Origin: a virus
Direction: 5' to 3' (one strand)
Length of the DNA: 39,180 nucleotides
Virus record (IMG/VR): IMGVR_UViG_3300045988_088556
The position numbers and the translations under genes are program-made. The notes under the pieces are model-generated. The model saw only the letters and a program-made list of their open reading frames with translations. It was not told the origin of the DNA and ran no database searches. How positions within the stretch are numbered: position 1 is the stretch's first letter; each line of letters begins with the position of its first letter. Shown here piece by piece: positions 1 to 39,180 of the stretch.

Positions 1-45
1 GATGCAGCGTAGTCTCGTGGGCTCGGAGATGTGTATAAGAGACAG
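1..45. other. Library adapter: 11-nt tag, Nextera read-2 adapter GTCTCGTGGGCTCGG and Tn5 mosaic end AGATGTGTATAAGAGACAG. Not biological.
   Basis: Exact match to the well-known Nextera transposase adapter. Its perfect reverse complement is at 39136-39180. Confidence 0.92.
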
Positions 46-8935: not shown

Positions 8936-9775
8936 TTAGGCGGCATCGGTGAACAACATCATGTCTGTGTAGTGCGAGCTGTAGTTCACTGTTGCGTTGA
9001 ACTCCACCTTGTGGCAGTTCTTGAATGGGTTGCCCACGGTCGGGTTCTTGCCCATCCATTCACAAAGCTCAATAATGGATGACTTGTTGGAAGTGAAATA
9101 TATAAAGTGATGTCTGGCAAGAATGGTCAGCACATCGAGGTAGTCGGAAAGTTTCCAGTACATATTATATGTGCCAACATCGGTGGATAGATAGGGCGGA
9201 TCAACAAGGTACACAACATTCGGCATGTCTTTGTATCTGGCGAACACCTCTTTGTAGTCGCATGATACTACTGTGATACCTTCAAGATAGTCCTCACAAG
9301 TAGGATAGTCTGACTTGCGGAGATTGTTGTATAGAGCCTCCTTCTTCATTTCGGGGATGCTCAATTTGTATTTCATGGAGAACATCAGTCCGGAAGAAAT
9401 GGTGATGAAGTCAATGTACCCGACCTCTCGTTCCTCTTGCTCCAAACGAGCGAATATGCGGTCGCGCAGTTCACCACGGATGCAGCTGTGCTTGGGTATG
9501 CCTTCCGTCTCCACCATTTTGCGCAGGTCAGCCAAAAGGTGGTTGGTCTGCGGGATGTGCTGTAGGCGGTTGCGGTAGCCGTCGAAGTCGTTGTATATGA
9601 CTGTGGCATTTGGCTTCTGGCACTTGGTGATGTGCGACAGCAGACCCGAACCGCCGAACAAATCCACGAATACTGTGTCCTCTGGATATTGTTTTAGAAC
9701 CTTGATAAACTCACGCGCGAACATGCGCTTCTGCCCCACGAAAGGGAGCGGTGCCGATAGATACTGTTTTCTCAT
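8936..9775 (-). CDS. dam: Dam-family N6-adenine DNA methyltransferase (D12 class), orphan
   Basis: Motif I FVDLFGGSG and motif IV DPPY (LVDPPYLS) in alpha-class order. No restriction-enzyme gene is adjacent. Confidence 0.85.
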   Translation of the reverse strand: MRKQYLSAPLPFVGQKRMFAREFIKVLKQYPEDTVFVDLFGGSGLLSHITKCQKPNATVIYNDFDGYRNRLQHIPQTNHLLADLRKMVETEGIPKHSCIRGELRDRIFARLEQEEREVGYIDFITISSGLMFSMKYKLSIPEMKKEALYNNLRKSDYPTCEDYLEGITVVSCDYKEVFARYKDMPNVVYLVDPPYLSTDVGTYNMYWKLSDYLDVLTILARHHFIYFTSNKSSIIELCEWMGKNPTVGNPFKNCHKVEFNATVNYSSHYTDMMLFTDAA

Positions 9776-9778
9776 GCC

Positions 9779-10417
9779 TTACACGTTCAGTTCAAATTTC
9801 ACGTTCTCGTTTCCGTTGAGCAACTGGCGTGTGTGGCTGATGTTGTTCTCGTAGATATGCACATTCGCAAGGTTCAGCGTGATGGACTTCAAAGGCAAGT
9901 CAATCTGCCGGGCCATAAGGTAGAGGTGGTAGATGTCGGCAGGCAAGCCGAGGTTCGCGTCCGAGCTGCGCTGGTATGCCGACACCACCAGTTCGCCGTT
10001 CTCTATCTGGAACTGAACGAGCGACAGGCACGGAGCCTGATTTGTCTCCGCATCGGTGGAACCGAGGAATAGCACATAGTTCTTGCTGTTGCGCTTCTCG
10101 CGGTTGATTTTGGCAATGAGCGGTGGCAGTTTCTCAAAATAGGTGGGGTAGGAGTTCACAAGGATGGCACCGCAGTAGTCCCACCAGTTGATGCCCACCT
10201 CGCGGTACTTCTCCACGTTGCGCTCGCCCTGCATGAATAGCTGTAGCTCGTTCCTTAACTTCTTGCGTGCGATGCCGTGCCCCTCGAAAATGTCGAGTAG
10301 GTCGGCAGGGGAAAGCACCAACCGCTCGTTGAGCAGATAGCGTATGCTCCCCTTCTTGTTTTGTTGGCACTTGCCCTCGGCAAGCACCTTCTGCAAAATT
10401 TGATGGTATTTGTTCAT
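9779..10417 (-). CDS. Thymidylate-synthase-family pyrimidine C5 (hydroxy)methylase, probably dCMP-specific
   Basis: Colinear with ThyA motifs: ELQLFMQG (ELLWFLQG), catalytic APC (Cys130, 10028-10030), YQRSSD..LGLP.DI. The residue equivalent to E. coli Asn177 is Asp161 (9935-9937). The C-terminus is short (212 aa in total). Confidence 0.72.
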   Translation of the reverse strand: MNKYHQILQKVLAEGKCQQNKKGSIRYLLNERLVLSPADLLDIFEGHGIARKKLRNELQLFMQGERNVEKYREVGINWWDYCGAILVNSYPTYFEKLPPLIAKINREKRNSKNYVLFLGSTDAETNQAPCLSLVQFQIENGELVVSAYQRSSDANLGLPADIYHLYLMARQIDLPLKSITLNLANVHIYENNISHTRQLLNGNENVKFELNV

Positions 10418-10488
10418 AACCGTTTTGAATTTGAAAACGGTGCAAAGGTAACAACGCGTGTCCCTTCGACAATGACCATACGCAAATG

Positions 10489-10731
10489 TTACACTGCAAG
10501 TAGATTGCAGTCAGTTTTGAAACGCCGTATAAGGCTGTACACCTTGCGCTCGCTTATGGCATATTCTGTGGCGAGCCTTGCCACGATGTACGACACTTTT
10601 TCGCCCTGTGCCGACATCGAGCGGTATTCGTTGAAAAGGTCGATATATTGCACATCGTCAAGCCTTATACCAGCCTTTTGGAAGTAAATCAGTAGTTCCC
10701 TGTTCAAATTAAGTATCTCTATTACTTTCAT
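10489..10731 (-). CDS. Mor/C-like small HTH transcription activator candidate
   Basis: 80 aa with C-terminal HTH IVARLATEYAISERKVYSLIRR. Its own TAttTTTG -7 box lies at 10790-10797 on the minus strand. Confidence 0.5.
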   Translation of the reverse strand: MKVIEILNLNRELLIYFQKAGIRLDDVQYIDLFNEYRSMSAQGEKVSYIVARLATEYAISERKVYSLIRRFKTDCNLLAV

Positions 10732-10757
10732 TTTCAGAAATTTTTAGTACTTTTGCA

Positions 10758-10925
10758 TCGTCTCACTTATTCAGCGCAATCGCGCACAACAAAAATAAAC
10801 CTCTTACTGGCGAACGAGGGTATATGCCCCCGGTCGTGCCGGTAAGAGGTATCGTTGTGTTAATGAGTAAGTGAGACGACTAATTAACAGGCCGGGGGCT
10901 TTTTTATTTCCCTCCCCCGAAGGGA
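10758..10925. promoter_or_regulatory. Structured intergenic region with nested inverted repeats (terminator plus promoter plus long-range stems)
   Basis: - Stem A: 10758-10772 with 10865-10879 (14/15).
- Stem B: 10800-10811 with 10838-10849 (11/12), followed by tttattttt on the minus strand.
- Stem C: 10826-10833 with 10892-10899 (8/8).
- Hairpin D: 10909-10925. Confidence 0.5.
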
Positions 10926-10931
10926 TTGTTC

Positions 10932-11417
10932 TTAGTCTCGGTATAACTCCAAATTGAAATTATCCTTGCTCTTCCATCCATCAGCCAGTGTGTCCTGGAT
11001 ATGCTGCATGGCTTTGGTATAGAAGTCCGTCAGTTCGTCGATGTCGGTGAATGTGTGATAGCATGGCTCATCGTCTGTTCCGAACTTGAACGTGACTGGC
11101 AATGTCTTGCCGTCAGACTGCACAGCCAAGTCGTATGCCACCTTGTAGTTGAACTGGTTCTCGTTTGAGAGCCACACGCTCATGCCGTTCCACACGAAGC
11201 CAGAAAGTATGGTCTCGTTCGTGCGGTCGTTGAACCACTCCGACACCATGGTCTTGATGGTGTCCTCAGATGGTTTTCCGTTGAACTCCGCCTCCATGTA
11301 GTCGGCAGAGCCATCCTCGTTGTTATGCACGTCCCAGCGGACGCGCCATTTTCCTTTGACGGGGTTGGTGCATTCAAGCAGCTTTACCCCTTGTGCTCCG
11401 TTTACTCTGTTCATCAT
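10932..11417 (-). CDS. DUF4376-like protein, translationally coupled to the RT
   Basis: 161 aa. Its ATG overlaps the RT stop (ATGA). Segment ILSGFVWNGMSVWLSNENQFNYKVAYD resembles the DUF4376 core. Recognised from memory. Confidence 0.55.
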   Translation of the reverse strand: MMNRVNGAQGVKLLECTNPVKGKWRVRWDVHNNEDGSADYMEAEFNGKPSEDTIKTMVSEWFNDRTNETILSGFVWNGMSVWLSNENQFNYKVAYDLAVQSDGKTLPVTFKFGTDDEPCYHTFTDIDELTDFYTKAMQHIQDTLADGWKSKDNFNLELYRD

Positions 11418-12766
11418 GTGAAAATGTACTTTGTTCTACCTTTGCCGAAGGTTTCCGCCTTGATGGTGGTCTCGAATGGGAAGCCGTCTGGCATTTCACT
11501 CACTTGCTGGAGAATGTTTTTCATCTCCTCGCTGTTGGTGAAGAACTTCTTCGGCTCGCCGTTCTGCTCGATGGACACGACACAGCGGTCTTCGCCCTGG
11601 CTGGTTTTGACTCCGACCTCGAAGTCTTTTACCACTATGGGCAGGTTCACCAACTCGCGGATGCTTACCACCGCACCCGCAAATCGCTTCTTGCCGTCTT
11701 CCGGCTTGTAAGCGACATTCAAATCCTTAAATGATTTCATTTTTTTGCCTGTTAATTTATAAAACAAATTTCGGCAGCAAGCGTGCTTGGCCATTCCGTA
11801 GAATGACGCAATCAGTTCTCGCCGTCTCTTTCTTGACTTGACTTTGTGTAGTTTCCTTGCATACTTCTTCTTGACACGCTTGCGCAGTAGAGAGTATGAT
11901 CCGTTGAATGTCACATACCCCAAGAAGTCGATTCCTTGCGCTGATGGGAATACCCTTTCGTTCTTCTTGATTTCAAGGTCTATTTTTTCGACTTGCTCAT
12001 GTACAATGCCGTGTGCCAGCCAATTTTCTTGCTTGTTGCCACAGAGCACTCTGCCGTCATCACAATAACGGTAGAAATGGCGGATGCCGTATTTGTCCTT
12101 CAGATAATGGTCAAGGTACTCGGACAACAAGAGATTGCCAGAAGCCTGTGAGCTTCGCAACCCGAAGCTGATGCCCTCCGGAAGGAGATGAAGAAAATGA
12201 TCCAGGAGCGACAGCAGGGTCTTGTCTTTGAATACTCTGCGGTAGCACCACATGACAAACTCAGGCTTAGTATTGTCATAGAAATGCTTGATGTCGAACT
12301 CGTAGCAGTAGCGTGTGCCTTCGGGGTCACGTTCCATGTCCAATTGCATGCACTTGCGGAGATCATGTGTGCCACGCTTCTTAATACTTGCTCCAGTCGT
12401 CCTGATAAAACGCTTATGCAGATGTTGGTCCACCACGTTCATCACGGCATACACTGCGATGCGGTCGTACATGGAAATAATCTGCAGGTGTCTTACTTTG
12501 CCATTCTCACAGATGATGCGTTCATGATAGTTGCCGAGTCGAAAGGAACCATCGGAAAGTTTGGCAGTCAATTCTGCAATCACCTCCTCGCGGTGTGCGA
12601 GCAGATAGCGTCCTTGACGGCATCTCTTTCGTTTTGTCCCACGCAGTACACGGTCAAACGCCTCCGACATATTGCCGTAGGACGTTATCTCTTGCATGAT
12701 ATAGCCTTCTCTGTGCATGGTCTTTTTTTGTGATGGAAGATAAGGGCCTTCCTTTCCCCGGGCCAA
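11414..12766 (-). CDS. DGR-type reverse transcriptase with an extra ~100-aa C-terminal domain
   Basis: RT motifs include catalytic YCDD (12056-12067) and the DGR-typical [LIV]GxxxSQ motif (GLRSSQ, aa 202-207). It lies 148 nt downstream of an AAY-rich template repeat. The start is ambiguous: Met17 at 12718 or Met24 at 12697 are also possible. Confidence 0.88.
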   Translation of the reverse strand: MARGKEGPYLPSQKKTMHREGYIMQEITSYGNMSEAFDRVLRGTKRKRCRQGRYLLAHREEVIAELTAKLSDGSFRLGNYHERIICENGKVRHLQIISMYDRIAVYAVMNVVDQHLHKRFIRTTGASIKKRGTHDLRKCMQLDMERDPEGTRYCYEFDIKHFYDNTKPEFVMWCYRRVFKDKTLLSLLDHFLHLLPEGISFGLRSSQASGNLLLSEYLDHYLKDKYGIRHFYRYCDDGRVLCGNKQENWLAHGIVHEQVEKIDLEIKKNERVFPSAQGIDFLGYVTFNGSYSLLRKRVKKKYARKLHKVKSRKRRRELIASFYGMAKHACCRNLFYKLTGKKMKSFKDLNVAYKPEDGKKRFAGAVVSIRELVNLPIVVKDFEVGVKTSQGEDRCVVSIEQNGEPKKFFTNSEEMKNILQQVSEMPDGFPFETTIKAETFGKGRTKYIFT

Positions 12767-12914
12767 ACTTCTTCGAATCGTTACCGACCTACCAAACTCT
12801 ATTGCCCGACACTTGATGTTTCAGCTTTCCACCTTGAATATAGGTGCTTTTGCTGTGGCTCGTTTCCCTCGGCTCCACATTAGGGACACGTCCCCATCGT
12901 TGTACGCCGATTAG

Positions 12915-13033
12915 TTAGATTTCCAGGCGCGAGCCGACATTCGCATTCGCATTCGAGGCATCGTTATTCGCATTCGCATTCGAGACACCGCCATTCGCGT
13001 TCGCATTGTTGTACCCGCGATAGACCACACGGC
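12915..13033 (-). repeat. DGR template repeat (TR); the 3' boundary is approximate
   Basis: On the minus strand the first 28 nt match the fibre-gene end at 39108-39135 at 26/28 positions, and both mismatches fall at TR adenines. In the VR frame it reads RVVYRGYNNANANGGVSNANANNDASNANANVGSRLEI-stop with 11 AAY codons. No ORF covers it. Confidence 0.82.
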
Positions 13034-13056
13034 CTTTGGGAAACTCTACCAGTTTG

Positions 13057-13064
13057 CAAAGTTA
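13057..13064 (-). promoter_or_regulatory. Candidate promoter -7 box for the TR-RT transcript
   Basis: The minus strand reads taactttg, a perfect TAnnTTTG, ~24 nt upstream of the TR start. Confidence 0.35.
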
Positions 13065-13094
13065 CTCATTCTCTGTGCAAAAGATGAATGAATA

Positions 13095-13328
13095 TTACAC
13101 AATGAGCCAAAATAACATTGCAATGAAGCCTCCGAGCACTGTGCAAGCCCAGTCAATCCAGTCCCAAGGACAGCCGTGAAGTTTGTCTTTGAGTTCGAGA
13201 CATGAGGCTGCGATGATGGCAGAATAGATGGCAGCCCATGGCGACAATGCGCACAGACCGACCAGCAAACCGCCGATTAGATGCTTGTAGCGGTTGCTTT
13301 TCTTTAGAAATGAGAAAATTTTGCTCAT
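13095..13328 (-). CDS. Small integral membrane protein (2-3 TM segments); role unknown (immunity, holin or exclusion)
   Basis: 77 aa with hydrophobic segments LIGGLLVGLCALSPWAAIYSAIIAA and ACTVLGGFIAMLFWLIV. Confidence 0.55.
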   Translation of the reverse strand: MSKIFSFLKKSNRYKHLIGGLLVGLCALSPWAAIYSAIIAASCLELKDKLHGCPWDWIDWACTVLGGFIAMLFWLIV

Positions 13329-13408
13329 AACTTGTTGTGTTTTGAAAATTTGTTATTACCTTTGCAATGCGAGGGATGGGGTAACCTTTAGAGACCCGCT
13401 CTCGTTCC

Positions 13409-13435
13409 AGCCAAGTTTTCTAACTTGGCTTTTTT
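13409..13435. terminator. Hairpin overlapping the MuF stop codon, with a T-tract on the plus strand
   Basis: agccaagtt-ttct-aacttggct (9-bp stem) followed by ttttt on the plus strand. On the minus strand it is preceded by AAAAAA, and the KKPS-stop codons lie within the stem. Confidence 0.5.
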
Positions 13436-14832
13436 ATTTGTACTATCTCTTCTCCTTGTATGCAGTAAATCAAATCAAACTTCTTATACTGGGATGTTCC
13501 CTTGAGACCATTGAATTTTGCAAGACCAGCTTGGAAGTTCTCCGCTGAGAAATTGCCGTTAGGGAAGAATAAAACTGCGATTTTTGATTCTGGTTTAGAT
13601 GCACAATGTTTGAGAGCATTTCTAATATTATTAGATGTGCCACTTTCTGCACCGGCGACCTCGAATTTAAGATCATCCCAAAGTCCCTCGCAACTCTTCC
13701 CTTTATACACATTCTGTGGCTCGTCCTCTAAAATAACAGAATGTCCATGTTTATATCCAACATCTTGTATTGTGGTTTCATACCAGCCTTTGTCTTTGTC
13801 TAAGTTGTGCCCAATATGGGTGGCTTTTAAGCCCCCGTTCTTTTCATCAAAGTCAACATCTTTATATTTATCATCTTTGATGAGTTTGCCATATAAGGAA
13901 CGATTCTTTTCGATGTGCTCATTTTGAACATCTTTGATGCACCGAAGTAGCTTGCACGCAGCACACAACTCATTTTCGGGAATGAACTTCGCCAACTTGA
14001 TTTTCCCTTTTGCGATGTCGCAGTCCCTGCACCGACGAATGGTGTAGGGGTTATAGTCGGGCACGGTCTTATCCTCCTTGCCGGGGTTAAAATGGAAGAT
14101 GCCTTTAGTGTCGCGTTGCAGAGCCTCTTCACCCAGTGCCATCGCCTCGTCGTGCGGTGTGGCAGGATATTTGGACTTGCGCACCTGCACTACGGTGCAA
14201 CGACAGTTCCAACCGTTGGGCGGATAGTACTCCTCCCAGAACGGGTCTGAAGGCGGAAGCGTCACGCCATTAAGCGCAGCGTGTTCCGGGCGCACCTTGC
14301 CATCGCCAGCCGTGCGGTACTGGAGGTTGTAGCGGTCGCCGTCCTCAGAGAACCGTTCCCACTTGGCAGCCATCTCCGCAGACGACTGTACGAAGTTGTA
14401 CTCCGCACGGAGGTAGTTGGAGTTGTAGGTCTTGTCTATCTTTCTAACATCATTCAAAAAGGCTTCGAATGTCTTTCTATTGCCGTTAGAATCCAGCAAG
14501 GACGGGAACGCCTCGTTCAACTCATGGAATGTTTTCATGCCGGAGAAAATGTAGTCCGACCGCTGGAGCCGCTTGCGCATGGCATCGGACATCTCCACCT
14601 TTTTGAAAGTGGAGTCCAGCACACCGGCATGGGCATCGATGAACTTCTGGATTTTCGGCTCTGCCAGCACCTCGATGCGGAACTGCGAACCCTCCAACGA
14701 GTAGAGCGTGTTCATCATTCCGTCGAACAGTTCAGAGAGCTGCTTGCGTATCTCTTCTTCGCGCTCCTTAGACAGCGACAAAGTTTGTGGATCATCGCCT
14801 AACAGTCGGGCATAGCGTTGGTGCAGCCCCAC
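13420..14832 (-). CDS. Mu F / SPP1 gp7-family head morphogenesis protein with a ~205-aa C-terminal extension (candidate effector or toxin domain)
   Basis: MuF core motifs: YRTAGDGKVRPEHAALNG and GWNCRCTVV. The extension (aa ~265-470) has a Cys cluster (CRDCD...CAACKLLRC) and a His-rich domain. GC drops from ~57% to ~40% across it. Confidence 0.78.
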   Translation of the reverse strand: MGLHQRYARLLGDDPQTLSLSKEREEEIRKQLSELFDGMMNTLYSLEGSQFRIEVLAEPKIQKFIDAHAGVLDSTFKKVEMSDAMRKRLQRSDYIFSGMKTFHELNEAFPSLLDSNGNRKTFEAFLNDVRKIDKTYNSNYLRAEYNFVQSSAEMAAKWERFSEDGDRYNLQYRTAGDGKVRPEHAALNGVTLPPSDPFWEEYYPPNGWNCRCTVVQVRKSKYPATPHDEAMALGEEALQRDTKGIFHFNPGKEDKTVPDYNPYTIRRCRDCDIAKGKIKLAKFIPENELCAACKLLRCIKDVQNEHIEKNRSLYGKLIKDDKYKDVDFDEKNGGLKATHIGHNLDKDKGWYETTIQDVGYKHGHSVILEDEPQNVYKGKSCEGLWDDLKFEVAGAESGTSNNIRNALKHCASKPESKIAVLFFPNGNFSAENFQAGLAKFNGLKGTSQYKKFDLIYCIQGEEIVQIKKPS

Positions 14833-32515: not shown

Positions 32516-35500
32516 ATGACAGACGAGGAGAAGAAGACCGTCGTTCAGGAAGTCCTGAACCAGATAAAGACAGACAGTCAGAGCGTGGACGAACTGGAAA
32601 CCGCCACCTCACTTGACTGCGTGAACTCACTCCCGGCCATGCAGGGTGAGAAGGTTGTCCGTGTGCCTGTGTCCCTGCTTGCGAAACCTGCGGAAGACGC
32701 GGCCAAGAGAGCAAACGCAGCCGCCGCCACAGCGGACGCATCATCGAAAGCGGCCGGAACTGCGGCACAGCAGGCCAAAGACGCGGCAGATGTGGCTTCC
32801 GGCGCGGCACTCACGGCCAACAATTCGGCCATGCTTGCCGATGCGGCCACGGCAAAGCTGAATGATGCCATCGCAGCCGCCAACACCCACCCGGTGGTGC
32901 TGGCGAACAGCCTTGTCGGTGATGCAGACCGCATATTCAGTGACTGGTCAGAGGCGATGGAGACCATTGCCGGCAACGAGAGCGTCGGTGGTGAGAAAGT
33001 ATTTACCACCGGCTGCGTGATGATATTCAGGAGTGCGGACGGTTGGGAGTCCTGGCAGTTCACCGGTGATCCCCTCGATGACCTCCATGATGCGGAGAAA
33101 TGGCAGGAATATGCCACAGGCGGCAGTGGCGGAAACACCTACAATGTGACAGAGGAAATCCCGCTTGAGAGCGGTTACTACACATTGGCGACCGCCATTG
33201 TTGCCGTAGAGGAGAAGAAACGCGCCAAGGGACGCTGCATCACCTACGAGACGGCACAGGGCAAGTGGGAGACCAAGCAGTTCATCGGCACGAGCCTTGA
33301 CAGTTGGGAACAGGCGGCAAGTTGGGAGGACTTCGGCGGTGCGGGTAACGTGAAGAGCATATCGGTAAACGGAAAGAAACAGACGCTTGACAGCGCGGGC
33401 AACGTGAACCTCACCATAAATGAGACGGAGGTGGACGAGAGTCTGAACGCCAACTCGACGAACCCGGTGCAGAACGCGGCCGTGGCCGCCAAACTTGCAG
33501 AGGTCGAAGCCAACACCATATTCGGCGGCAGTGCCGAACTGAGCGATGACGAGAGCACCGTGCGTGTGACGCTGACCAACAAGAGCGGCGCGGAGGTTGT
33601 CGGCTTGGATATTCCTGCCGGCAAGGGCGGCGGTGGCGGAGAAACCTCCACCACCAGAATCGTGTTGACGGCAGAAACAGACAAGTCCGTCATCAAGGAA
33701 GGCGACAAGGCCACACTCACATGGTTCTACGACCACCAGTACAGCAGCGGTGACGAGAAGGGGACATCGACGGGGCAGAAAGCCACGGTGGAGATACAGA
33801 TGAAACGCGGCGCGACGCTGATGTATTCCGATACGCAGCAGGACGTGAGCAAGGGCACCTATACGCTGGACCTGACGAAATACCTCCTTTTGGGCACGAC
33901 TGACATCTATGTGAAGGCCACCACCACCGACCCGACCACAGGCAAGACGCAGACCAAGCAGAGCTATGTAAGTGTGAAGGCGGTGACGCTTGCACTGACG
34001 AGCGGTTTCAATATTGCCGAGTGCATTGCAAAGGGTGGTTATGGCGTGAGCGAGAATGTGGGCATACCCTATGCCGTAAGCGGAAGCGGTACAAAGACCG
34101 TCACCCTCTATGTGGACGGCATACAGAAAGATTCCGTTTCTGTCACGAGGAGCGGTACGACCAACGGTATCTTTACGCTCTCCATGTCCGGGCTTGCTGT
34201 CGGCAGGCATACCGTGCAGATGGTGGCTGAGATGAAGGCAAGCGAGGAACTGACACTGAAGAGCGATAGCATCTATTTCGATATATTGAAGACCGGCAGC
34301 AGCGCTCCATATATAGGAACCAAGATAACCTTCAAGGACGGACGCGTCTTTACGGCAGACCATCTCACCCCGACTATCGACACAGGCCAGTATGAGCAGG
34401 TGTTGTTCGACTTCGTGGCGTATGACCCGACAGCGACCCCTGCAAGCATGAGCGTGTGGAGGGACGGCATAAGGACACAGACGGTGAGCGTGCCGAGAAC
34501 GGTGCAGACCTACACGAACCGTTTCCTGGAGAAAGGCGCAGTTGCGATGGTGCTGAAGTGCGGCACGACCGAATACAAGTTCAATGTGAACGTGACGGAG
34601 AGCGGCATCGACCTTGGCGAGGCGACATCGGGACTGGTGCTGAAGCTGACGGCAGCGGGCAGGAGCAATGCGGAGAGCAGTCCTGCGGAATGGCGTTATA
34701 ACGACGTTCAAACGGCGTTTGAAGGCTTTGACTGGCAGAGCAACGGCTGGACGGGTGACGCGCTGAAATTGACGAACGGCGCGAACATCGAGATAGGCTG
34801 CAAACCATTCGGCAACGATGCTACGACCACTGGTGCGACTTACGAGATGGAACTGACCTGCACCAATGTGACCGACCGCAAGGGCACGGTGGTGGACTGT
34901 ATGGCCGACAATGTCGGTTTCAGACTGACCACGCAGGAGGCGCTGATGTGCACGGGCGCAGGCTCGGAAGTGGGCACGAAGTTCGCGAGCGGCATGACAC
35001 TGAAGATAGCCTTCGTGGTCCAGGAGAAGAAGGGCAACCGGCTGATGGAACTGTATGTGAACGGCATATTGAGCGGTGCAAAGCAGTACGCCCCGACAGA
35101 CAGCCTTCTGCAGGACGAGCCGGCCAACATCAGGATAACGAGTGAGAGCGCGGACGTGGAGGTAAGGAACCTGCGCATATACAACCGTGCATTGGGCGAT
35201 GACGAGGAACTTGCCAACTACATGGTGGACCGCCCGACGAGCGATGAGATGGTGTTTCTGTTCGAGAAGAACCAGGTGATGGACGACGAGGGCACTGATG
35301 TCGATATAGACAAGCTGAGGGCGATGGGCAAGAGCGTGATGCGCATCGTGGGCGACGTTAACTTAGTGAACCAGACGAACAACAAGAAGTTCGAGGTGCC
35401 GGTCGATATATACTTCTATTCGGCCTACGGCAAGGAGTATGACTTCATCATCTACCAGTGCGGTCTGCGCATACAGGGAACATCATCGACGACCTACCCG

Positions 35501-38500
35501 AGAAAGAACTACCGCATATACTTCTCAAGAGAGAGCAAGTACGGCACGAAGTTGTATGTGAACGGAGTGGAGGTTCCTGACTTCAAGTATTCGTTCAAGC
35601 CGGGGGCACGTCCCATTGACATTTTCTGTCTGAAAGCCGACTTCTCGGACTCGTCCTCAACGCACAACCCCGGCGGTGTGCGCATCGTGAACGATATTTG
35701 GAAGAAATGCGGCTGGCTGACTCCGCCACAGGCGGCATACAAAGGCAACTACGACGTGAGAATCGGCGTGGACGGTTTCCCTATGGACCTGTTCTATGAC
35801 AACGACGGGACAGGTGAGAACGTGTACTTAGGCAAGTACAACTTCCTGAACGAGAAGAGCGGCAGCGGCATCATCTACGGCTTTGAGGGTATCGAGGGTT
35901 TCAATGACGAAGCAACACTCAATGGTGAACGCAACAAGTGCATCTGTCTGGAGTTTCTGAACAACTCTGAGGCACTGTGTCTGTTCGGTACGAGCAACAT
36001 GGACTCGTTTGACGACGCACTGGAGTTCCGTTTCAAGGCCGATGACACATGGGCGACGGCGCACGAGGACGACAAGGCAGCTGTGAAACGCCTTTGGGAA
36101 TGGATTTATTCGTGCAAGGGCAACCCGACAAAGTTCTTGAACGAATATGAGGGCTATTTCGGCAACGACTCGCCCTTTGCATGGTATCTGATAACCGACT
36201 ACCTGATGGCTGTCGATAACCGCGCGAAGAACATGATGCTCGTGACATGGGACGGCAAGATATGGTACTTCATTCCCTACGACATGGATACCATCTTCGG
36301 CGAGCGGAATGACTCGGTGCTGAAGTACGACTACACGATAACGTGGGAGACGATGGACGAGAGCATCGGCTCGTATGCCTTTGCAGGGCATGACTCGGTA
36401 TTGTGGGAGCTGGTGAGAAGCTGCCCCGACAAGTTGCGCGAGGTGGCCGACAAGCTGCGCTCTACCATGTCGTTGGAATATGTGCTGAAAGTGTTCAACG
36501 AGAAGCAGATGGGCAACTGGTGCGAGCGCATCTACAACAAGGACGGTATCTATAAGTATATCAAACCGCTCACGGATGGCGTGACGAGTGCTGACGGAAC
36601 GACCAATTACTACGACTACCTGTACGCGTTGCAGGGCAGCCGGTACGCCCACCGCACCTTCACCATTCAGAACCGCTTCGCCCTGCTTGACAGTCAGTAT
36701 GTGTGCGGCACATACAGAAAGGACAGCTTTGCGGCCTACTTCGGCTACAAATTTGGCTCGGATAACCGCAAAATAAGAATCACGGCAAGCGAGCGTTACT
36801 ACTTCGGATACGGCTACACAAGCGGAACGCCTCACCAAAGTGCGGTGCTGGCCGAGGACACGGGTAGCACGGTAAACCTGACATTGGATACAGATCTCAT
36901 TGTGAACGACCCGCAGTACATCTACGGCGCAAGCCGCATCATGGGGCTTGACCTGACGGACGTGAGTCACGCTATACTGCAGACGCTGAATCTGAACAAC
37001 TGCACGGCACTGAGGACGCTGGACGTGAGCTGTGCCCAGGCACAGACAACGCTGAACGCCCTGTTGGTAAACGGTTGTCGGAACTTGCGGACATTGAGCA
37101 TGACCGGTCTGAAGTCCACAGCCTTTACAGGCATAGACCTGAGTAACAACACGAAGTTGGAGACACTGAAAGCTGGCCGGACGGCACTGACAGGCGTGAA
37201 CTTCGCACAGGGCGCACCGCTGACGAGCGTGACGCTGCCTGCGACATCGCAGACGCTGGAGTTGCGCTATTTGGGCAAACTGAGGACAAGTGGCCTGACA
37301 TTAGAGGGCACGGGCAATATCACACGCTTTGTGGTGGATAATTGTCCCGGCATAGACTGGCAGACATTGTATGCAAGATGCACCAATGTAAAGTATCTGC
37401 GCGTGACTGGTATCGACATGGAGGGCGACGGCAGCCTGCTGACCTCGCTGATGGCGATTGGCGGCGTGGACGAGAACGGTGGCAACGTGGATACCTGCCG
37501 ACTGGTGGGCACATATCGACTGACGCAATACAAGGCCGATGAAGAGTACGATGCACTGCAGCGGCACTTCCCCGAACTGAACATTGTACAGCCCGAATAC
37601 ACCATGCTGGAGAGCGACGAGAGTGTGGCAGACGATGCGAATATCTCCAATCTTGACAACGGAACGGGCTACAAGTACGGCAACGACTACAAGCCGAGCG
37701 GGCACATAGAGGCAATCTTCAAGAACCGCCACCGTGTGCTGGCGAAGGTGACAAAGAAGGCTACGACAAGAAATGTGAACATCGCCAATGTGGATACCGT
37801 GGTGAACAACCTTGACGGTGAGATGACATATTGCCCACTTGCAGACACGGACAGCAACAAGTATTATGATGGCACGGTTGCAAAGCTGGACGGCACGGAG
37901 GGCGACTGGATGATGTATGAGCCATTCTTCTGGAGCAAGGGCATCAACGACTTCCTGAACGGCAAGAACTACAGCTGCTACAGTTCAAGGGACAAGGACC
38001 ACATGCCGACGGTGCCGAACGTGGACGTGCTTACGCTTGCGGACATCAAGGCACGTCAAGGCGGTTATACCAGCGGAAAGAAGATAATGAGCGGCAAGGA
38101 CACCATCAAGAACTCCTACAGCACAGACAGCACCTATTCCGTATGTATGGTCGATGTCAGCGGTTACAAGAAAGTACGCTGGCCGAGTGTGCCAGGAACC
38201 AATCTCGTAGGCTCAATATTTGCTGATGCAAGCGGTAATGTGGTGAAAGACATCGTGGTTCCGACTCTGGGCAGCCGTTTCGAGGCCGGTATGTATCTTA
38301 TATCAGATGTTCCGGAAGGTGCGACGGCATTGTATTTCTCCATTTTGAACACGGCAGAGTTCGATAAGGTAGTCCTCTCCAACAGTGAGAAGATAGAGGA
38401 CATGGAGCCGGAGTGGTTCGCCAATGACGAGCACTTGTGCGCTGTTGTGGGCAGCTCGGTAGTCGGCAGCAAGTTGCGCTCTGCCATAACAGGCAACAGC

Positions 38501-39135
38501 ACCACCGGCAGTATGTCATGGACGGACTTCCACTATTACAGCGTGCAGCGAGGCATGCAGCAGATAGACGCGCTGATGCACTTCCGTATTGCCAACTTGA
38601 GCTATGCCAAGTATGGGCGCAGGAATATGCAGGAACAGTGCGGCGCCGGCCAGCATTCCTATATGAGAACAACCGGCGGTACAGCGTCAAGAGGTATGCA
38701 GGACACCATTGGCTTTGAGGAGGCAAGCGGAATCAACCCGAATGTGACAAACAATACCTCCGATGCAGGCGTGCACCTGTATGCCTGGTATATAGAGAAA
38801 GACGAGTACGGAGCCACAAAGGTGACACAGGTGAACAATATCTGCTGTATAGGCTATGAGGACATCTACGGCAACAAGTATGATATGATGGACGGCGTTG
38901 ATGTACCGAATACAAGCGGCAATGTCGGCAAGTGGCGCATTTGGCTACCTGACGGCAGTACCATTATGATAAAAGGCATGAGCAACAGCGGCTACTGGAT
39001 AACCACCGTGGCGCATGGCAAACTGATGGCAATAGTGCCTGTTGGAGCCATGAATGGCTCGTCCACCACCTACTACTCTGATATATACTATTTCAGTTCA
39101 GGCACGTGCCGTGTGGTCTATCGCGGGTGCTACAA
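32516..39135 (+). CDS. Giant receptor-binding tail fibre protein and DGR target. 3'-partial (more than 2206 aa) with LamG-like, CotH-like, LRR-like and C-terminal lectin-like regions.
   Basis: The frame is open from the ATG at 32516 to the adapter junction; I translated it by eye and spot-checked it at 34682, 36962 and 38702. It is absent from the ORF track because it has no stop in the window.
- LamG-like: LYVNG...VEVRNLRIYNRAL
- CotH-like: PRKNYRIYF, FCLKADFSDSS, VYLGKYNF
- LRR-like: LNLNNCTALRTLDVS...
- The 3' end matches the TR. Confidence 0.85.
39108..39135 (+). repeat. DGR variable repeat (VR), only the first 28 nt visible, truncated by the fragment end
   Basis: gccgtgtggtctatcgcgggtGcTacaa aligned to TR gccgtgtggtctatcgcgggtAcAacaa. 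The mismatches at 39129 and 39131 both correspond to TR adenines (13012 and 13010). Confidence 0.75.
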
Positions 39136-39180
39136 CTGTCTCTTATACACATCTCCGAGCCCACGAGACTACGCTGCATC
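39136..39180. other. Library adapter (reverse complement of 1-45). Not biological.
   Basis: CTGTCTCTTATACACATCT plus CCGAGCCCACGAGAC plus the tag. This is the Nextera mosaic-end read-through sequence. Confidence 0.92.

What the first reader, a model, noticed from the sequence alone, without database searches (positions are those of the whole stretch)
10932..11734. Atypical DGR accessory set: no Avd, an RT with an extra C-terminal domain, and a translationally coupled DUF4376-like gene
- No small basic four-helix-bundle (Avd-like) ORF is visible anywhere near the TR, RT or target.
- The RT is 450 aa. Its polymerase core ends at about aa 340, and ~105 further residues follow (11417-11734). That region reads KRFAGAVVSIRELVNLPIVVKDFEVGVK...RCVVSIEQNGEPKKFFT and looks like a beta-rich, possibly OB-like module.
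- The RT stop overlaps the ATG of a 161-aa DUF4376-like gene (ATGA at 11414-11417), which implies co-expression.
- Either module could replace Avd function. That idea is speculation.
Basis: inference. Interest (0 to 1): 0.65.

Follow-up and report, generated by a model that had tools for sequence, protein, structure and literature searches.

The report
Avd-less phage DGR with OB-like RT domain
This is the reverse-transcriptase end of a hankyphage-type diversity-generating retroelement that has no Avd helper protein; instead its enzyme carries a small, self-contained, probably nucleic-acid-binding domain, and the gene coupled to it looks more like a tail-fibre chaperone than an Avd substitute.

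Summary
The RT ORF (11414-12766, minus strand; the likely start is ATG 12718, giving 434 aa) matches Bordetella bRT only up to aa 336. About 108 further residues follow. Its TGA overlaps the ATG of a 161-aa gene. No Avd was found in a nearly complete phage genome.

The arrangement is not new. The window is a hankyphage-like transposable phage. The 161-aa protein fits "CH1" of Wu et al. 2018 (160-169 aa, pI 4.7, found only in Avd-less DGRs). Hankyphage records label it "Avd", which is wrong: it is acidic (pI 4.6), alpha/beta, and has a DUF4376 fold.

What I add:
- **The RT extension is an autonomous domain.** Its predicted topology is OB-like. In other DGRs it is a separate gene directly after a 296-363-aa RT. 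This fusion/fission pattern ties it to the RT.
- **A structured RNA sits between TR and RT.** It is the Rfam RT-3 RNA.
- **CH1 survives without an RT.** It is intact in three relatives that lack TR and RT, and in two of them it lies directly after the tail-fibre gene. Characterised DUF4376 proteins are fibre chaperones.

Best reading: the OB-like domain is the built-in accessory of the RT, and CH1 is more likely a fibre chaperone. Both functions are inferred, not shown.

The parts
10932..11417 (-). 161-aa acidic protein, equivalent to 'CH1' of Wu et al. 2018. It has an N-terminal four-stranded beta domain and a C-terminal DUF4376-fold domain. Its start overlaps the RT stop codon (ATGA).
   Evidence: - ORF and overlap.
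- pI 4.63.
- phrog_19239 at 6e-69.
- Pfam DUF4376 at 3.7e-4, below cut-off.
- AF2 model pLDDT 90.
- BFVD matches to DUF4376 proteins at probability 1.0.
- No PDB match.
11417..11740 (-). C-terminal ~108-aa module of the RT (aa 343-450 of the 450-aa ORF). It is basic and has an OB-like beta-barrel topology. It begins at a Met that is conserved at the junction.
   Evidence: - Lies beyond the bRT-homologous thumb.
- phrog_19665 (a 105-aa family) at 2e-21.
- AF2 pLDDT 83, pTM 0.71, order b1-b2-b3-helix-b4-b5.
- Foldseek against PDB is not significant, but the top of the list is mostly OB-fold ssDNA-binding proteins.
- A free-standing gene after the RT in other DGRs.
- Met at the junction in 65 of 65 fused RTs.
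11414..12718 (-). DGR reverse transcriptase, 434 aa from ATG 12718 (the ORF extends to TTG 12766). It consists of the polymerase core and thumb plus the fused module listed above.
   Evidence: - RVT_1.
- phrog_1423 at 1.6e-100.
- Aligns to bRT 8ub7_A at 2e-15, including GLRSSQ opposite IGSLTSQ and YCDD opposite YMDD.
12759..12912 (-). RT-3 RNA (Rfam RF03068), a structured RNA between TR and RT. It is presumably the spacer part of the DGR RNA.
   Evidence: - cmscan 146.2 bits (gathering score 40.5), E 1e-35, full-length match.
- The same motif occupies the same position in hankyphage and in phages BT-TP2, BS-TP4 and BKO1-TP3.
12923..13033 (-). Template repeat (TR), 111 nt with 25 adenines. It encodes ...RVVYRGYNNANANGGVSNANANNDASNANANVGSRL.
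   Evidence: - Matches the truncated VR at the contig end.
- Matches the full VR of a relative (L020).
39108..39135 (+). First 28 nt of the variable repeat (VR). The contig is cut here by a Nextera adapter.
   Evidence: Over these 28 nt it differs from TR at two positions, and both are TR adenines.
32516..39135 (+). DGR target gene: a giant tail-fibre-like protein of at least 2206 aa, truncated at the contig end. It ends ...CRVVYRGCY.
   Evidence: - Open frame.
- Homologous C-terminus in the hankyphage tail-fibre protein.

Best explanation
The region is the 3' half of an Avd-less, hankyphage-type DGR operon. Its order is TR, RT-3 structured RNA, RT, then CH1.

**The RT extension.** The RT has acquired, by gene fusion, a small autonomous OB-like basic domain. 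In other DGR lineages the same domain is a separate gene directly after the RT. I propose that it is the element's built-in accessory factor. It would bind the DGR RNA (the RT-3 spacer and TR) and/or the nascent cDNA. That would cover at least part of the RNA-positioning role that pentameric Avd plays for bRT.

**The coupled 161-aa gene.** CH1 is co-transcribed and translationally coupled with the RT. It is a DUF4376-fold protein belonging to the phage backbone. It is more likely a chaperone or assembly factor for the DGR-diversified giant tail fibre than an Avd substitute.

**Shown:** the anatomy, the absence of Avd, the autonomy of the domain, the synteny statistics, and the RNA motif.
**Inferred:** nucleic-acid binding by the module, any Avd-like role, and the chaperone role of CH1.
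For: **Identity of the element**
- The window is hankyphage-like.
- Hankyphage has the same RT/161-aa overlap.

**No Avd**
- No Avd family hit in the window, with a working bAvd positive control.
- Wu et al. found no avd anywhere in the genomes of Avd-less DGRs.

**The module is extra and is a real domain**
- It lies beyond the bRT-homologous thumb.
- It folds as a confident OB-like barrel.
- OB-fold ssDNA-binding proteins dominate the top of the Foldseek list, although no match is significant.

**The module is a separate gene directly after an RT in five independent lineages**
- These are L007, L010, L012, L013 and L103. The RTs are 296-363 aa.
- L007, L010, L013 and L103 have TR/VR pairs whose mismatches fall almost only at adenines.
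- A search of 1.84 billion representative proteins found the module only at the C-terminus of 430-552-aa proteins or as short proteins.

**The DGR RNA class tracks the protein architecture**
- RT-3 RNA goes with the fused RT plus CH1: window, L001, L017, L107-L109.
- RT-17 RNA goes with a split RT plus free module: L007, L013, L103.
- Avd-dependent BPP-1 has the Phage_DGR RNA.

**CH1 as a backbone or fibre gene**
- It has a DUF4376 fold.
- DUF4376 proteins are experimentally required tail-fibre chaperones (PMC7289586, PMC10579305, PMC7882524).
- CH1 is intact with no TR or RT nearby in L061, L071 and L087. In L061 it starts 80 nt, and in L071 42 nt, after the fibre stop codon.
- CH1 is absent from module-type DGRs with small non-fibre targets (L007, L103).
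Against: **Against the module as an Avd-like factor**
- No Foldseek or PDB sequence match for the module is significant (best E 0.085). "OB fold" rests on predicted topology alone.
- Nucleic-acid binding is untested.
- One short, low-coverage contig (L102) has the free module with no RT within the 496 nt upstream.

**Against CH1 as a mere fibre chaperone**
- Every RT-module gene in the close family is followed by CH1: 80 of 80 IMG/VR loci and 73 of 73 GTDB loci where the RT is present.
- The pairing recurs in non-Mu Bacteroides phages with CH1 identity down to 31%.
- In this window CH1 stays next to the RT, 26 kb from the fibre gene.
- Hankyphage RNA-seq shows CH1 tracking RT levels, with high basal expression, rather than fibre levels.
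- CH1 distances correlate somewhat better with the RT core (r 0.52) than with the fibre C-terminus (r 0.37).
Confidence: 0.5

Rival explanations
1. CH1 (the 161-aa DUF4376-like protein) is the functional replacement for Avd. On this view it is an RT-binding cofactor needed for cDNA synthesis or retrohoming, with or without the OB-like domain. This is what the first reader suggested and what the 'Avd' label in hankyphage records implies.
For: - The stop/start overlap with the RT is conserved. In 76 informative GTDB loci the gap is -4 or -1 nt in 45, and otherwise 33 nt or less.
- The RT-module is never seen without CH1 in the close family.
- The same trio occurs in BT-TP2, BS-TP4, BKO1-TP3, L012, L015 and L017.
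- CH1 stays with the RT when the cassette lies 26 kb from the fibre gene (this window).
- Transcript levels of RT and CH1 are near-equal in lysogens.
- CH1 distances co-vary with the RT core at r 0.52.
- Wu et al. listed CH1 as a DGR accessory gene.
Against: - It is acidic (pI 4.6) where Avd is basic (9.5), and alpha/beta where Avd is a four-helix bundle.
- It has no Avd family hit.
- It has a DUF4376 fold, and characterised members of that family are fibre chaperones.
- It is retained intact in three RT-less and TR-less prophages.
- It is absent from RT-17-class DGRs that still have the RT and the module.
- Adjacency in related phages may simply reflect inheritance. Wu et al. raise this same caveat for their minor candidate accessory genes (PAG1-4), not for CH1.
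Confidence: 0.28
2. Neither module substitutes for Avd. The RT works alone, like the ~29% of DGRs with no accessory gene, or it uses an Avd or another factor supplied in trans by the host or another DGR. The extension then serves something else, such as stability or packaging.
For: - Wu et al. list 75 of 372 DGRs with no accessory gene at all.
- Bacteroides genomes carry many DGRs that have Avd-like genes.
- No biochemical data exist for the module.
Against: - The module is kept with the RT through fusion and fission across divergent lineages and two RNA classes.
- It is strongly conserved, with a mean pairwise distance of 0.14 against 0.28 for the RT core.
- Wu et al. found no avd elsewhere in the genomes of Avd-less DGRs.
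- The phage infects several host genera, so dependence on a host-encoded Avd would be fragile.
Confidence: 0.15
3. The extension is only an elongated thumb or a disordered tail of the RT, with no independent fold.
For: Wu et al. report C-terminal extensions in ~20% of DGR RTs and found no recognisable motif in them.
Against: - A confident compact model (pLDDT 83) follows a low-confidence 24-residue linker.
- The module exists as a separate 103-109-aa gene in several DGRs.
- It has its own PHROG family.
Confidence: 0.03

Closest known systems
Hankyphage (Bacteroides phage p00) DGR (Benler et al. 2018, PMC6199706; PLoS Biol 2025, PMC12135933)
   Same: - Same gene set and order: TR, RT-3 RNA, a 434-aa RT carrying the same C-terminal module, an overlapping 161-aa gene, hp44, ThyA and a methyltransferase.
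- ~76% nucleotide identity over the module and CH1.
- Giant tail-fibre target.
- The hankyphage DGR is experimentally active.
   Different: - Here the TR-RT-CH1 block lies after MuF, on the opposite strand to the fibre gene and 26 kb from it. In hankyphage it lies directly downstream of the fibre.
- CH1 is 60-64% identical.
- The likely host is Prevotella.
- Hankyphage records call the 161-aa gene 'Avd'. That label is not supported.
DGR 'Architecture E' with accessory gene CH1 (Wu et al. 2018, NAR 46:11, PMC5758913)
   Same: - CH1 is described as 160-169 aa, pI 4.7 +/- 0.2, with no motif, flanking the RT, and present only in DGRs without avd, HRDC or MSL.
- The window protein is 161 aa with pI 4.63, next to the RT, and no Avd is present.
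   Different: - Wu et al. did not link CH1 to DUF4376.
- They did not recognise the RT extension as a discrete domain.
- I could not compare sequences directly, because the supplement is not held.
Bordetella phage BPP-1 DGR (bRT-Avd-DGR RNA ribonucleoprotein; PDB 8ub7; bioRxiv 10.1101/2023.10.23.563531)
   Same: - Homologous RT core and thumb.
- TR/VR adenine mutagenesis.
- A structured RNA between TR and RT.
- A tail-fibre target with its VR at the C-terminus.
   Different: - BPP-1 has a 128-aa basic four-helix-bundle Avd between target and TR, and the Phage_DGR RNA.
- Here there is no Avd, the RNA is RT-3, and the RT carries an extra OB-like domain.
DUF4376 tail-fibre chaperones (Alteromonas phage V22 gp27 and A5 gp9; the gene downstream of the Campylobacter CJIE1 H-fibre)
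   Same: - Small proteins with a C-terminal DUF4376 domain, encoded downstream of a tail-fibre gene.
- The CH1 model matches DUF4376 proteins in BFVD.
- In RT-less relatives CH1 lies directly after the fibre gene.
   Different: - CH1 scores below the Pfam threshold.
- Its N-terminal domain is conserved rather than variable.
- It is almost always separated from the fibre gene by TR and RT, and is translationally coupled to the RT.
- No experiment has addressed it.
OB-fold single-stranded nucleic-acid-binding proteins (e.g. human SSB1 5d8f, RPA, PriB, PRD1 P12)
   Same: - Predicted five-strand barrel with a helix between strands 3 and 4.
- Basic.
- These proteins head the Foldseek list.
   Different: - No match is significant (E >= 0.085, TM 0.2-0.44).
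- There is no sequence similarity.
- Binding has not been tested.

Membership tests
Diversity-generating retroelement (DGR) | RT of the DGR type: homologous to bRT, with the GxxxSQ motif and a YxDD catalytic site | tested here: met
   phmmer against 8ub7_A gives E 2e-15 over aa 22-336. GLRSSQ aligns to IGSLTSQ and YCDD to YMDD.
Diversity-generating retroelement (DGR) | TR/VR pair that differs essentially only at TR adenines, with the VR at the 3' end of a target gene | tested here: met
   - The window holds only 28 nt of the VR. It has two differences from TR, both at TR adenines.
- The homologous hankyphage locus L001 has 12 of 12 mismatches at adenines.
- A full VR is seen in relative L020.
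Diversity-generating retroelement (DGR) | Avd accessory gene (present in ~74% of DGRs, so not obligatory) | tested here: not met
   No hit to PF22296, PF05635 or NF033474 among the window ORFs. The bAvd positive control works.
Avd (bAvd-like, PF22296 / NF033474), tested on the 161-aa protein | ~110-130 aa, basic (pI ~9.5), four-helix bundle, matches the family HMM | tested here: not met
   - 161 aa with pI 4.63.
- The AF2 model is alpha/beta, with 8 strands and 3 long helices.
- No HMM hit.
- No PDB fold match, although bAvd structures are in the PDB.
Avd (bAvd-like), tested on the RT C-terminal module | Four-helix bundle that matches the family HMM | tested here: not met
   The module is basic (pI 9.0), but its predicted fold is a beta-barrel. 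It has no HMM hit.
CH1 accessory gene of DGR Architecture E (Wu et al. 2018) | 160-169 aa, pI 4.7 +/- 0.2, no recognised motif, flanks the RT, only in DGRs lacking avd, HRDC and MSL | tested here: met
   161 aa with pI 4.63, directly downstream of the RT, and no Avd present. Sequence identity to the published CH1 set could not be checked.
DUF4376 (PF14301) | Scores above the Pfam gathering threshold | tested here: not met
   21.4 bits against a cut-off of 25, E 3.7e-4, covering aa 60-154. Many orthologues at 63-86% identity do carry PF14301.
DUF4376 (PF14301) | Same fold as DUF4376 proteins | tested here: met
   Foldseek against BFVD returns multiple DUF4376 proteins at probability 1.0. One example is Bacillus phage Goe8 A0A516KMP3, with TM 0.54 and rmsd 3.1 over 111 columns.
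DUF4376 tail-fibre chaperone (functional class) | Required for folding or assembly of the cognate tail fibre, and binds its C-terminal region | not testable with these tools
   Only positional evidence is available: CH1 lies directly after the fibre gene in the RT-less loci L061 and L071.
OB-fold nucleic-acid-binding domain | Five-stranded closed beta-barrel with a helix between b3 and b4 | tested here: inconclusive
   The DSSP order in the AF2 model fits: E37-47, E53-61, E64-70, H73-83, E91-100, E104-109. Foldseek hits to SSB and RPA OB folds are not significant (E >= 0.085).
OB-fold nucleic-acid-binding domain | Binds single-stranded DNA or RNA | not testable with these tools
Only the basic pI of 9.0 and the fusion to an RT bear on it.
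RT-3 RNA (Rfam RF03068) | Scores above the gathering threshold with a full-length model match, located next to an RT gene | tested here: met
   146.2 bits against 40.5, model positions 1-148 of 148, at 12759-12912(-) between TR and the RT start.

The most novel reading that the evidence does not exclude
The ~105-aa OB-like module, fused to the RT or encoded just after it, is a previously unrecognised DGR accessory factor. On this reading it functionally replaces pentameric Avd in a whole class of Avd-less phage DGRs. It would work with dedicated structured RNAs (RT-3 and RT-17) in place of the Phage_DGR RNA. The invariant junction Met might additionally allow a free copy of the module to be made from an internal start. 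This would define a second architecture of the DGR reverse-transcription ribonucleoprotein.
Probability: 0.4. Interest if true: 0.7.

Novelty: new member of a known kind. Interest (0 to 1): 0.5.

Why it matters
About a quarter of DGRs have no Avd. How they prime and control mutagenic reverse transcription has been open since at least Wu et al. 2018. Hankyphage-type phages are among the most widespread temperate phages of gut Bacteroidales, and their DGR is active in culture.

This analysis gives concrete, separable candidates to test in that system:
- an OB-like domain that behaves evolutionarily as an RT partner;
- a defined RNA (RT-3);
- a DUF4376 protein whose published "Avd" label is wrong.

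A compact single-polypeptide RT-plus-accessory could also be useful for engineered DGR mutagenesis tools. Those tools currently rely on bRT plus Avd.

Tried and rejected
- **TR/VR search.** The generic repeat finder missed the pair. A strict A-masked scan found only TR itself. A short-word blastn found the truncated VR at the contig end.
- **Close 108-aa "stand-alone" homologues of the module**. I first read these as free genes. They are artefacts: the contigs start 27-46 nt upstream of an in-frame ATG. Only the distant ones are genuine separate genes.
- **PDB searches.** Foldseek and profile sequence searches for both proteins gave no significant or meaningful hits.
- **A possible "mini-CH1".** Acidic ORFs of ~110 aa lie next to the free module in L010, L013 and L106. 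hhalign lines up the region I expected, but with probability 0.3% and E 0.21, so this is not supported.
- **Mirror-tree comparison across 52 loci.** CH1 against RT core gives r 0.52, CH1 against the fibre C-terminus r 0.37, and the module r ~0.2 because it barely varies. The result is confounded by linkage and shared ancestry and is inconclusive.
- **Terminal inverted repeats or circular junction.** I compared the sequence downstream of the fibre gene in L110 with the window start. Only a 20-nt match appeared, which is not informative.
- **Single-sequence fold of the TR-to-RT region.** It is no more stable than shuffled sequence (z -0.24). The covariance-model hit is the real evidence for RNA structure.
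- **Literature search for an OB-fold or a defined C-terminal domain on DGR RTs.** Nothing was found beyond the general remark in Wu et al..
Full report
**1. What is in the sequence**

On the minus strand an ORF runs 12766->11414 and a 161-aa ORF runs 11417->10932. The RT stop TGA overlaps the ATG of the second gene (...ACATGATGAAC...).

Pfam places RVT_1 at aa 88-284. The protein aligns to Bordetella bRT (PDB 8ub7_A, 328 aa) from aa 22 to 336, which is nearly the end of bRT. The alignment includes the GxxxSQ and YxDD motifs. The last ~108 residues (nt 11740-11417) are therefore additional.

The true start is probably ATG 12718, giving 434 aa. The hankyphage RT is annotated that way. The TTG at 12766 also lies inside a strong RNA-motif match.

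**2. Context**

The window is almost a whole phage genome, with Nextera adapter at both ends (1-45 and 39136-39180).

It is a Mu-like transposable phage. I identified:
- an S24-type repressor;
- DUF3164, MuF and a Mu gp36-like protein;
- Phage_tail_S and an amidase;
- ThyA.

It is related to Bacteroides hankyphage p00, with ~76% nucleotide identity over the 161-aa gene and the RT 3' end.

The DGR parts are:
- **TR:** 13033->12923, 111 nt with 25 adenines.
- **VR:** only 28 nt, at the very end of the contig (39108-39135, plus strand). It differs from TR at two adenine positions.
- **Target:** an ORF of at least 2206 aa.

A full VR is seen in relative L020. In L110 the fibre gene ends ~75 nt after the VR and is followed by at least 265 nt of non-coding DNA. 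Very little of the phage is therefore missing.

The TR-RT block lies on the opposite strand to its target and 26 kb from it. This arrangement is also seen in other samples.

**3. No Avd**

- 29 plausible ORFs, plus the RT, its extension and the 161-aa protein, give no hit to bAvd-like or 23S_rRNA_IVP families.
- BPP-1 Avd, fetched as a control, hits PF22296 at 7e-36 and NCBIfam DivGenRetAVD at 6e-31.
- phmmer of bAvd against all ORFs finds nothing.
- Wu et al. 2018 also found no avd elsewhere in the genomes of Avd-less DGRs.

**4. The 161-aa protein is the published "CH1", not Avd**

It has pI 4.63. Wu et al. describe CH1 as 160-169 aa, pI 4.7 +/- 0.2, motif-less, flanking the RT, and present only where avd, HRDC and MSL are absent.

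Benler et al. 2018 noted a small ORF near the RT "with similar pI and MW" to Avd. The 2025 hankyphage records tag the 161-aa homologue "Avd".

That label fails on several counts:
- The AF2 model (pLDDT 90) is an N-terminal four-stranded sheet followed by a helix/hairpin domain.
- It has no PDB match.
- It matches many DUF4376 proteins in BFVD at probability 1.0.

Characterised DUF4376 proteins are tail-fibre chaperones: V22 gp27, A5 gp9, and the gene downstream of the Campylobacter CJIE1 H-fibre.

**5. The RT extension is an autonomous OB-like module**

It has its own PHROG family (phrog_19665, 105 aa).

The AF2 model has pLDDT 83 and pTM 0.71. A floppy 24-residue linker precedes the order b1-b2-b3-helix-b4-b5. 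Foldseek gives no significant PDB hit. However, human SSB1, RPA, Teb1, PriB, PRD1 P12 and tRNA-binding OB domains head the list.

An exhaustive search of 1.84 billion representative proteins found 242 relatives. They are either the C-terminus of 430-552-aa proteins or ~103-109-aa proteins.

The close 108-aa "proteins" are contig-edge artefacts. The distant ones are real genes directly after an RT:

| Locus | Arrangement |
|---|---|
| L007 / L103 | RT of 327-328 aa; module ORF overlaps its end by 17 nt in another frame |
| L010 | RT of 296 aa, 134-nt gap, module |
| L012 | RT 308 aa, module 109 aa, CH1 167 aa, as three genes |
| L013 | RT, a 112-aa ORF, then the module |

L007, L010, L013 and L103 have TR/VR pairs whose mismatches fall almost only at adenines. 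One short contig (L102) shows the module without an adjacent RT.

In 65 of 65 fused RTs, the residue at the position where the free genes start is Met.

**6. RNA partner**

Rfam RT-3 (RF03068) matches 12759-12912(-) at 146 bits, between TR and RT. Across loci:
- RT-3 accompanies the fused RT plus CH1: L001, L017, BT-TP2, BS-TP4, BKO1-TP3.
- RT-17 accompanies the split RT plus free module without CH1: L007, L013, L103.
- BPP-1 has Phage_DGR.

Weinberg et al. 2017 only speculated that the RT motifs serve DGRs.

**7. Is CH1 tied to the RT or to the fibre?**

*For the RT:*
- Of 80 GTDB loci with CH1, 76 are informative. 73 of these have the RT/module directly upstream. The gap is -4 or -1 nt in 45 and 33 nt or less otherwise.
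- 80 of 80 IMG/VR loci with the module have CH1 downstream.
- Three non-Mu Bacteroides phages repeat the order giant target, TR, RT-module, CH1, with CH1 identity down to 31%.
- Hankyphage RNA-seq shows RT and CH1 at near-equal levels, with high basal expression relative to the fibre.

*For the fibre or the phage backbone:*
- Three loci keep an intact CH1 with no TR, RT or RT-3 RNA.
  - In L061 CH1 starts 80 nt after the stop of the ~2000-aa fibre gene, and in L071 42 nt after it.
  - In L087 the order is MuF, CH1, ThyA, which is the window arrangement minus the cassette.
- CH1 is absent from module-type DGRs whose targets are small proteins (L007, L103).
- CH1 is acidic.

*Uninformative:*
- A mirror-tree test was inconclusive.
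- Neither RT nor CH1 was detected in the single capsid proteomics table.

**8. Conclusion**

The element is a new member of a known, catalogued Avd-less DGR type (hankyphage, Architecture E). The most defensible mechanism is as follows.
- The RT carries its own OB-like nucleic-acid-binding accessory domain and works with the RT-3 RNA.
- CH1 is a DUF4376-fold protein. It is more likely to serve the diversified fibre than to replace Avd, although a role with the RT is not excluded.

The functions of both modules are inferred. The anatomy, domain autonomy, synteny and lack of Avd are shown.

Noticed in passing
window 1-45 and 39136-39180: Both contig ends are Nextera transposase adapter (...AGATGTGTATAAGAGACAG / CTGTCTCTTATACACATCT...) with an index-like TACGCTGC. 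The real phage sequence is 46-39135. The assembly stops inside the hypervariable VR.
   Followed up: partly
window 8936-14832 (minus strand) versus 32516-39135 (plus strand): The DGR cassette is 26 kb from its target and on the opposite strand. The block MuF, 77-aa ORF, TR, RT, CH1, hp44, ThyA, methyltransferase is rearranged relative to hankyphage p00, where TR-RT-CH1 directly follows the fibre gene. Other samples share this arrangement (L002, L087).
   Followed up: partly
window 12759-12912 (-): A full-length Rfam RT-3 RNA match (146 bits) lies between TR and the RT start. Across loci, RT-3 goes with the fused RT-module plus CH1, and RT-17 goes with the split RT plus free module.
   Followed up: yes
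window 11738-11740 (-); loci L022-L101: The first residue of the module is Met in 65 of 65 fused RTs, exactly where the free-standing genes start. The preceding residue varies. This could be an internal start producing a free module, or a relic of the fusion.
   Followed up: partly
L002-L006 (relatives of window 11740 region): Metagenome contigs of relatives repeatedly begin 27-46 nt upstream of the module ATG. Protein databases therefore hold many spurious 108-aa "proteins"; P0011 alone is indexed in 811 collection blocks. This suggests a recurrent assembly or recombination breakpoint at the RT-core/module junction.
   Followed up: partly
L099 4629-5996; L056 4703-6001: L099 has an in-frame stop codon between the RT core and the module. 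L056 has an RT broken into several frames but an intact module ORF and CH1.
   Followed up: no
L061 5921-6001, L071 5962-6004, L087 2196-2330: Three hankyphage-like prophages have an intact CH1 but no TR, RT or RT-3 RNA within 6 kb. In two of them CH1 sits directly after the giant fibre gene.
   Followed up: partly
L010 4116-4466, L013 3775-4113, L106 232-561: Acidic ORFs of ~110 aa (pI 4.7-5.2) lie next to the free module in split-RT DGRs where no CH1 was detected (RT-17 RNA confirmed in L013). By eye they resemble the CH1 N-terminal region, but hhalign does not support this (E 0.21).
   Followed up: yes
window 10489-10731 (-): An 80-aa ORF (hp44 in hankyphage) lies directly downstream of CH1. 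It has weak HTH/Mor-family hits (E 0.004-0.016) and may be a late-gene activator. It is conserved in both genome arrangements.
   Followed up: no
window 13095-13328 (-): A 77-aa ORF that looks like a protein with two transmembrane segments lies immediately upstream of TR. It is unrelated to hankyphage hp41, which occupies that position there, and it has no family hit.
   Followed up: no
L012 3349-3876: This locus carries a second DUF4376 protein (175 aa, Pfam 28.9 bits) 1.2 kb downstream of its CH1, just before a protein of more than 1142 aa. CH1 and a separate DUF4376 paralogue can therefore coexist.
   Followed up: no
L022, L023 (CH1 98% identical to window): The nearest genomic relatives are in a Prevotella sp. 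UBA10664 MAG and in a bin labelled Oscillibacter, which is probably mis-binned. The module is 100% identical in dozens of IMG/VR contigs. This phage type is therefore common, and its host is probably Prevotella.
   Followed up: partly
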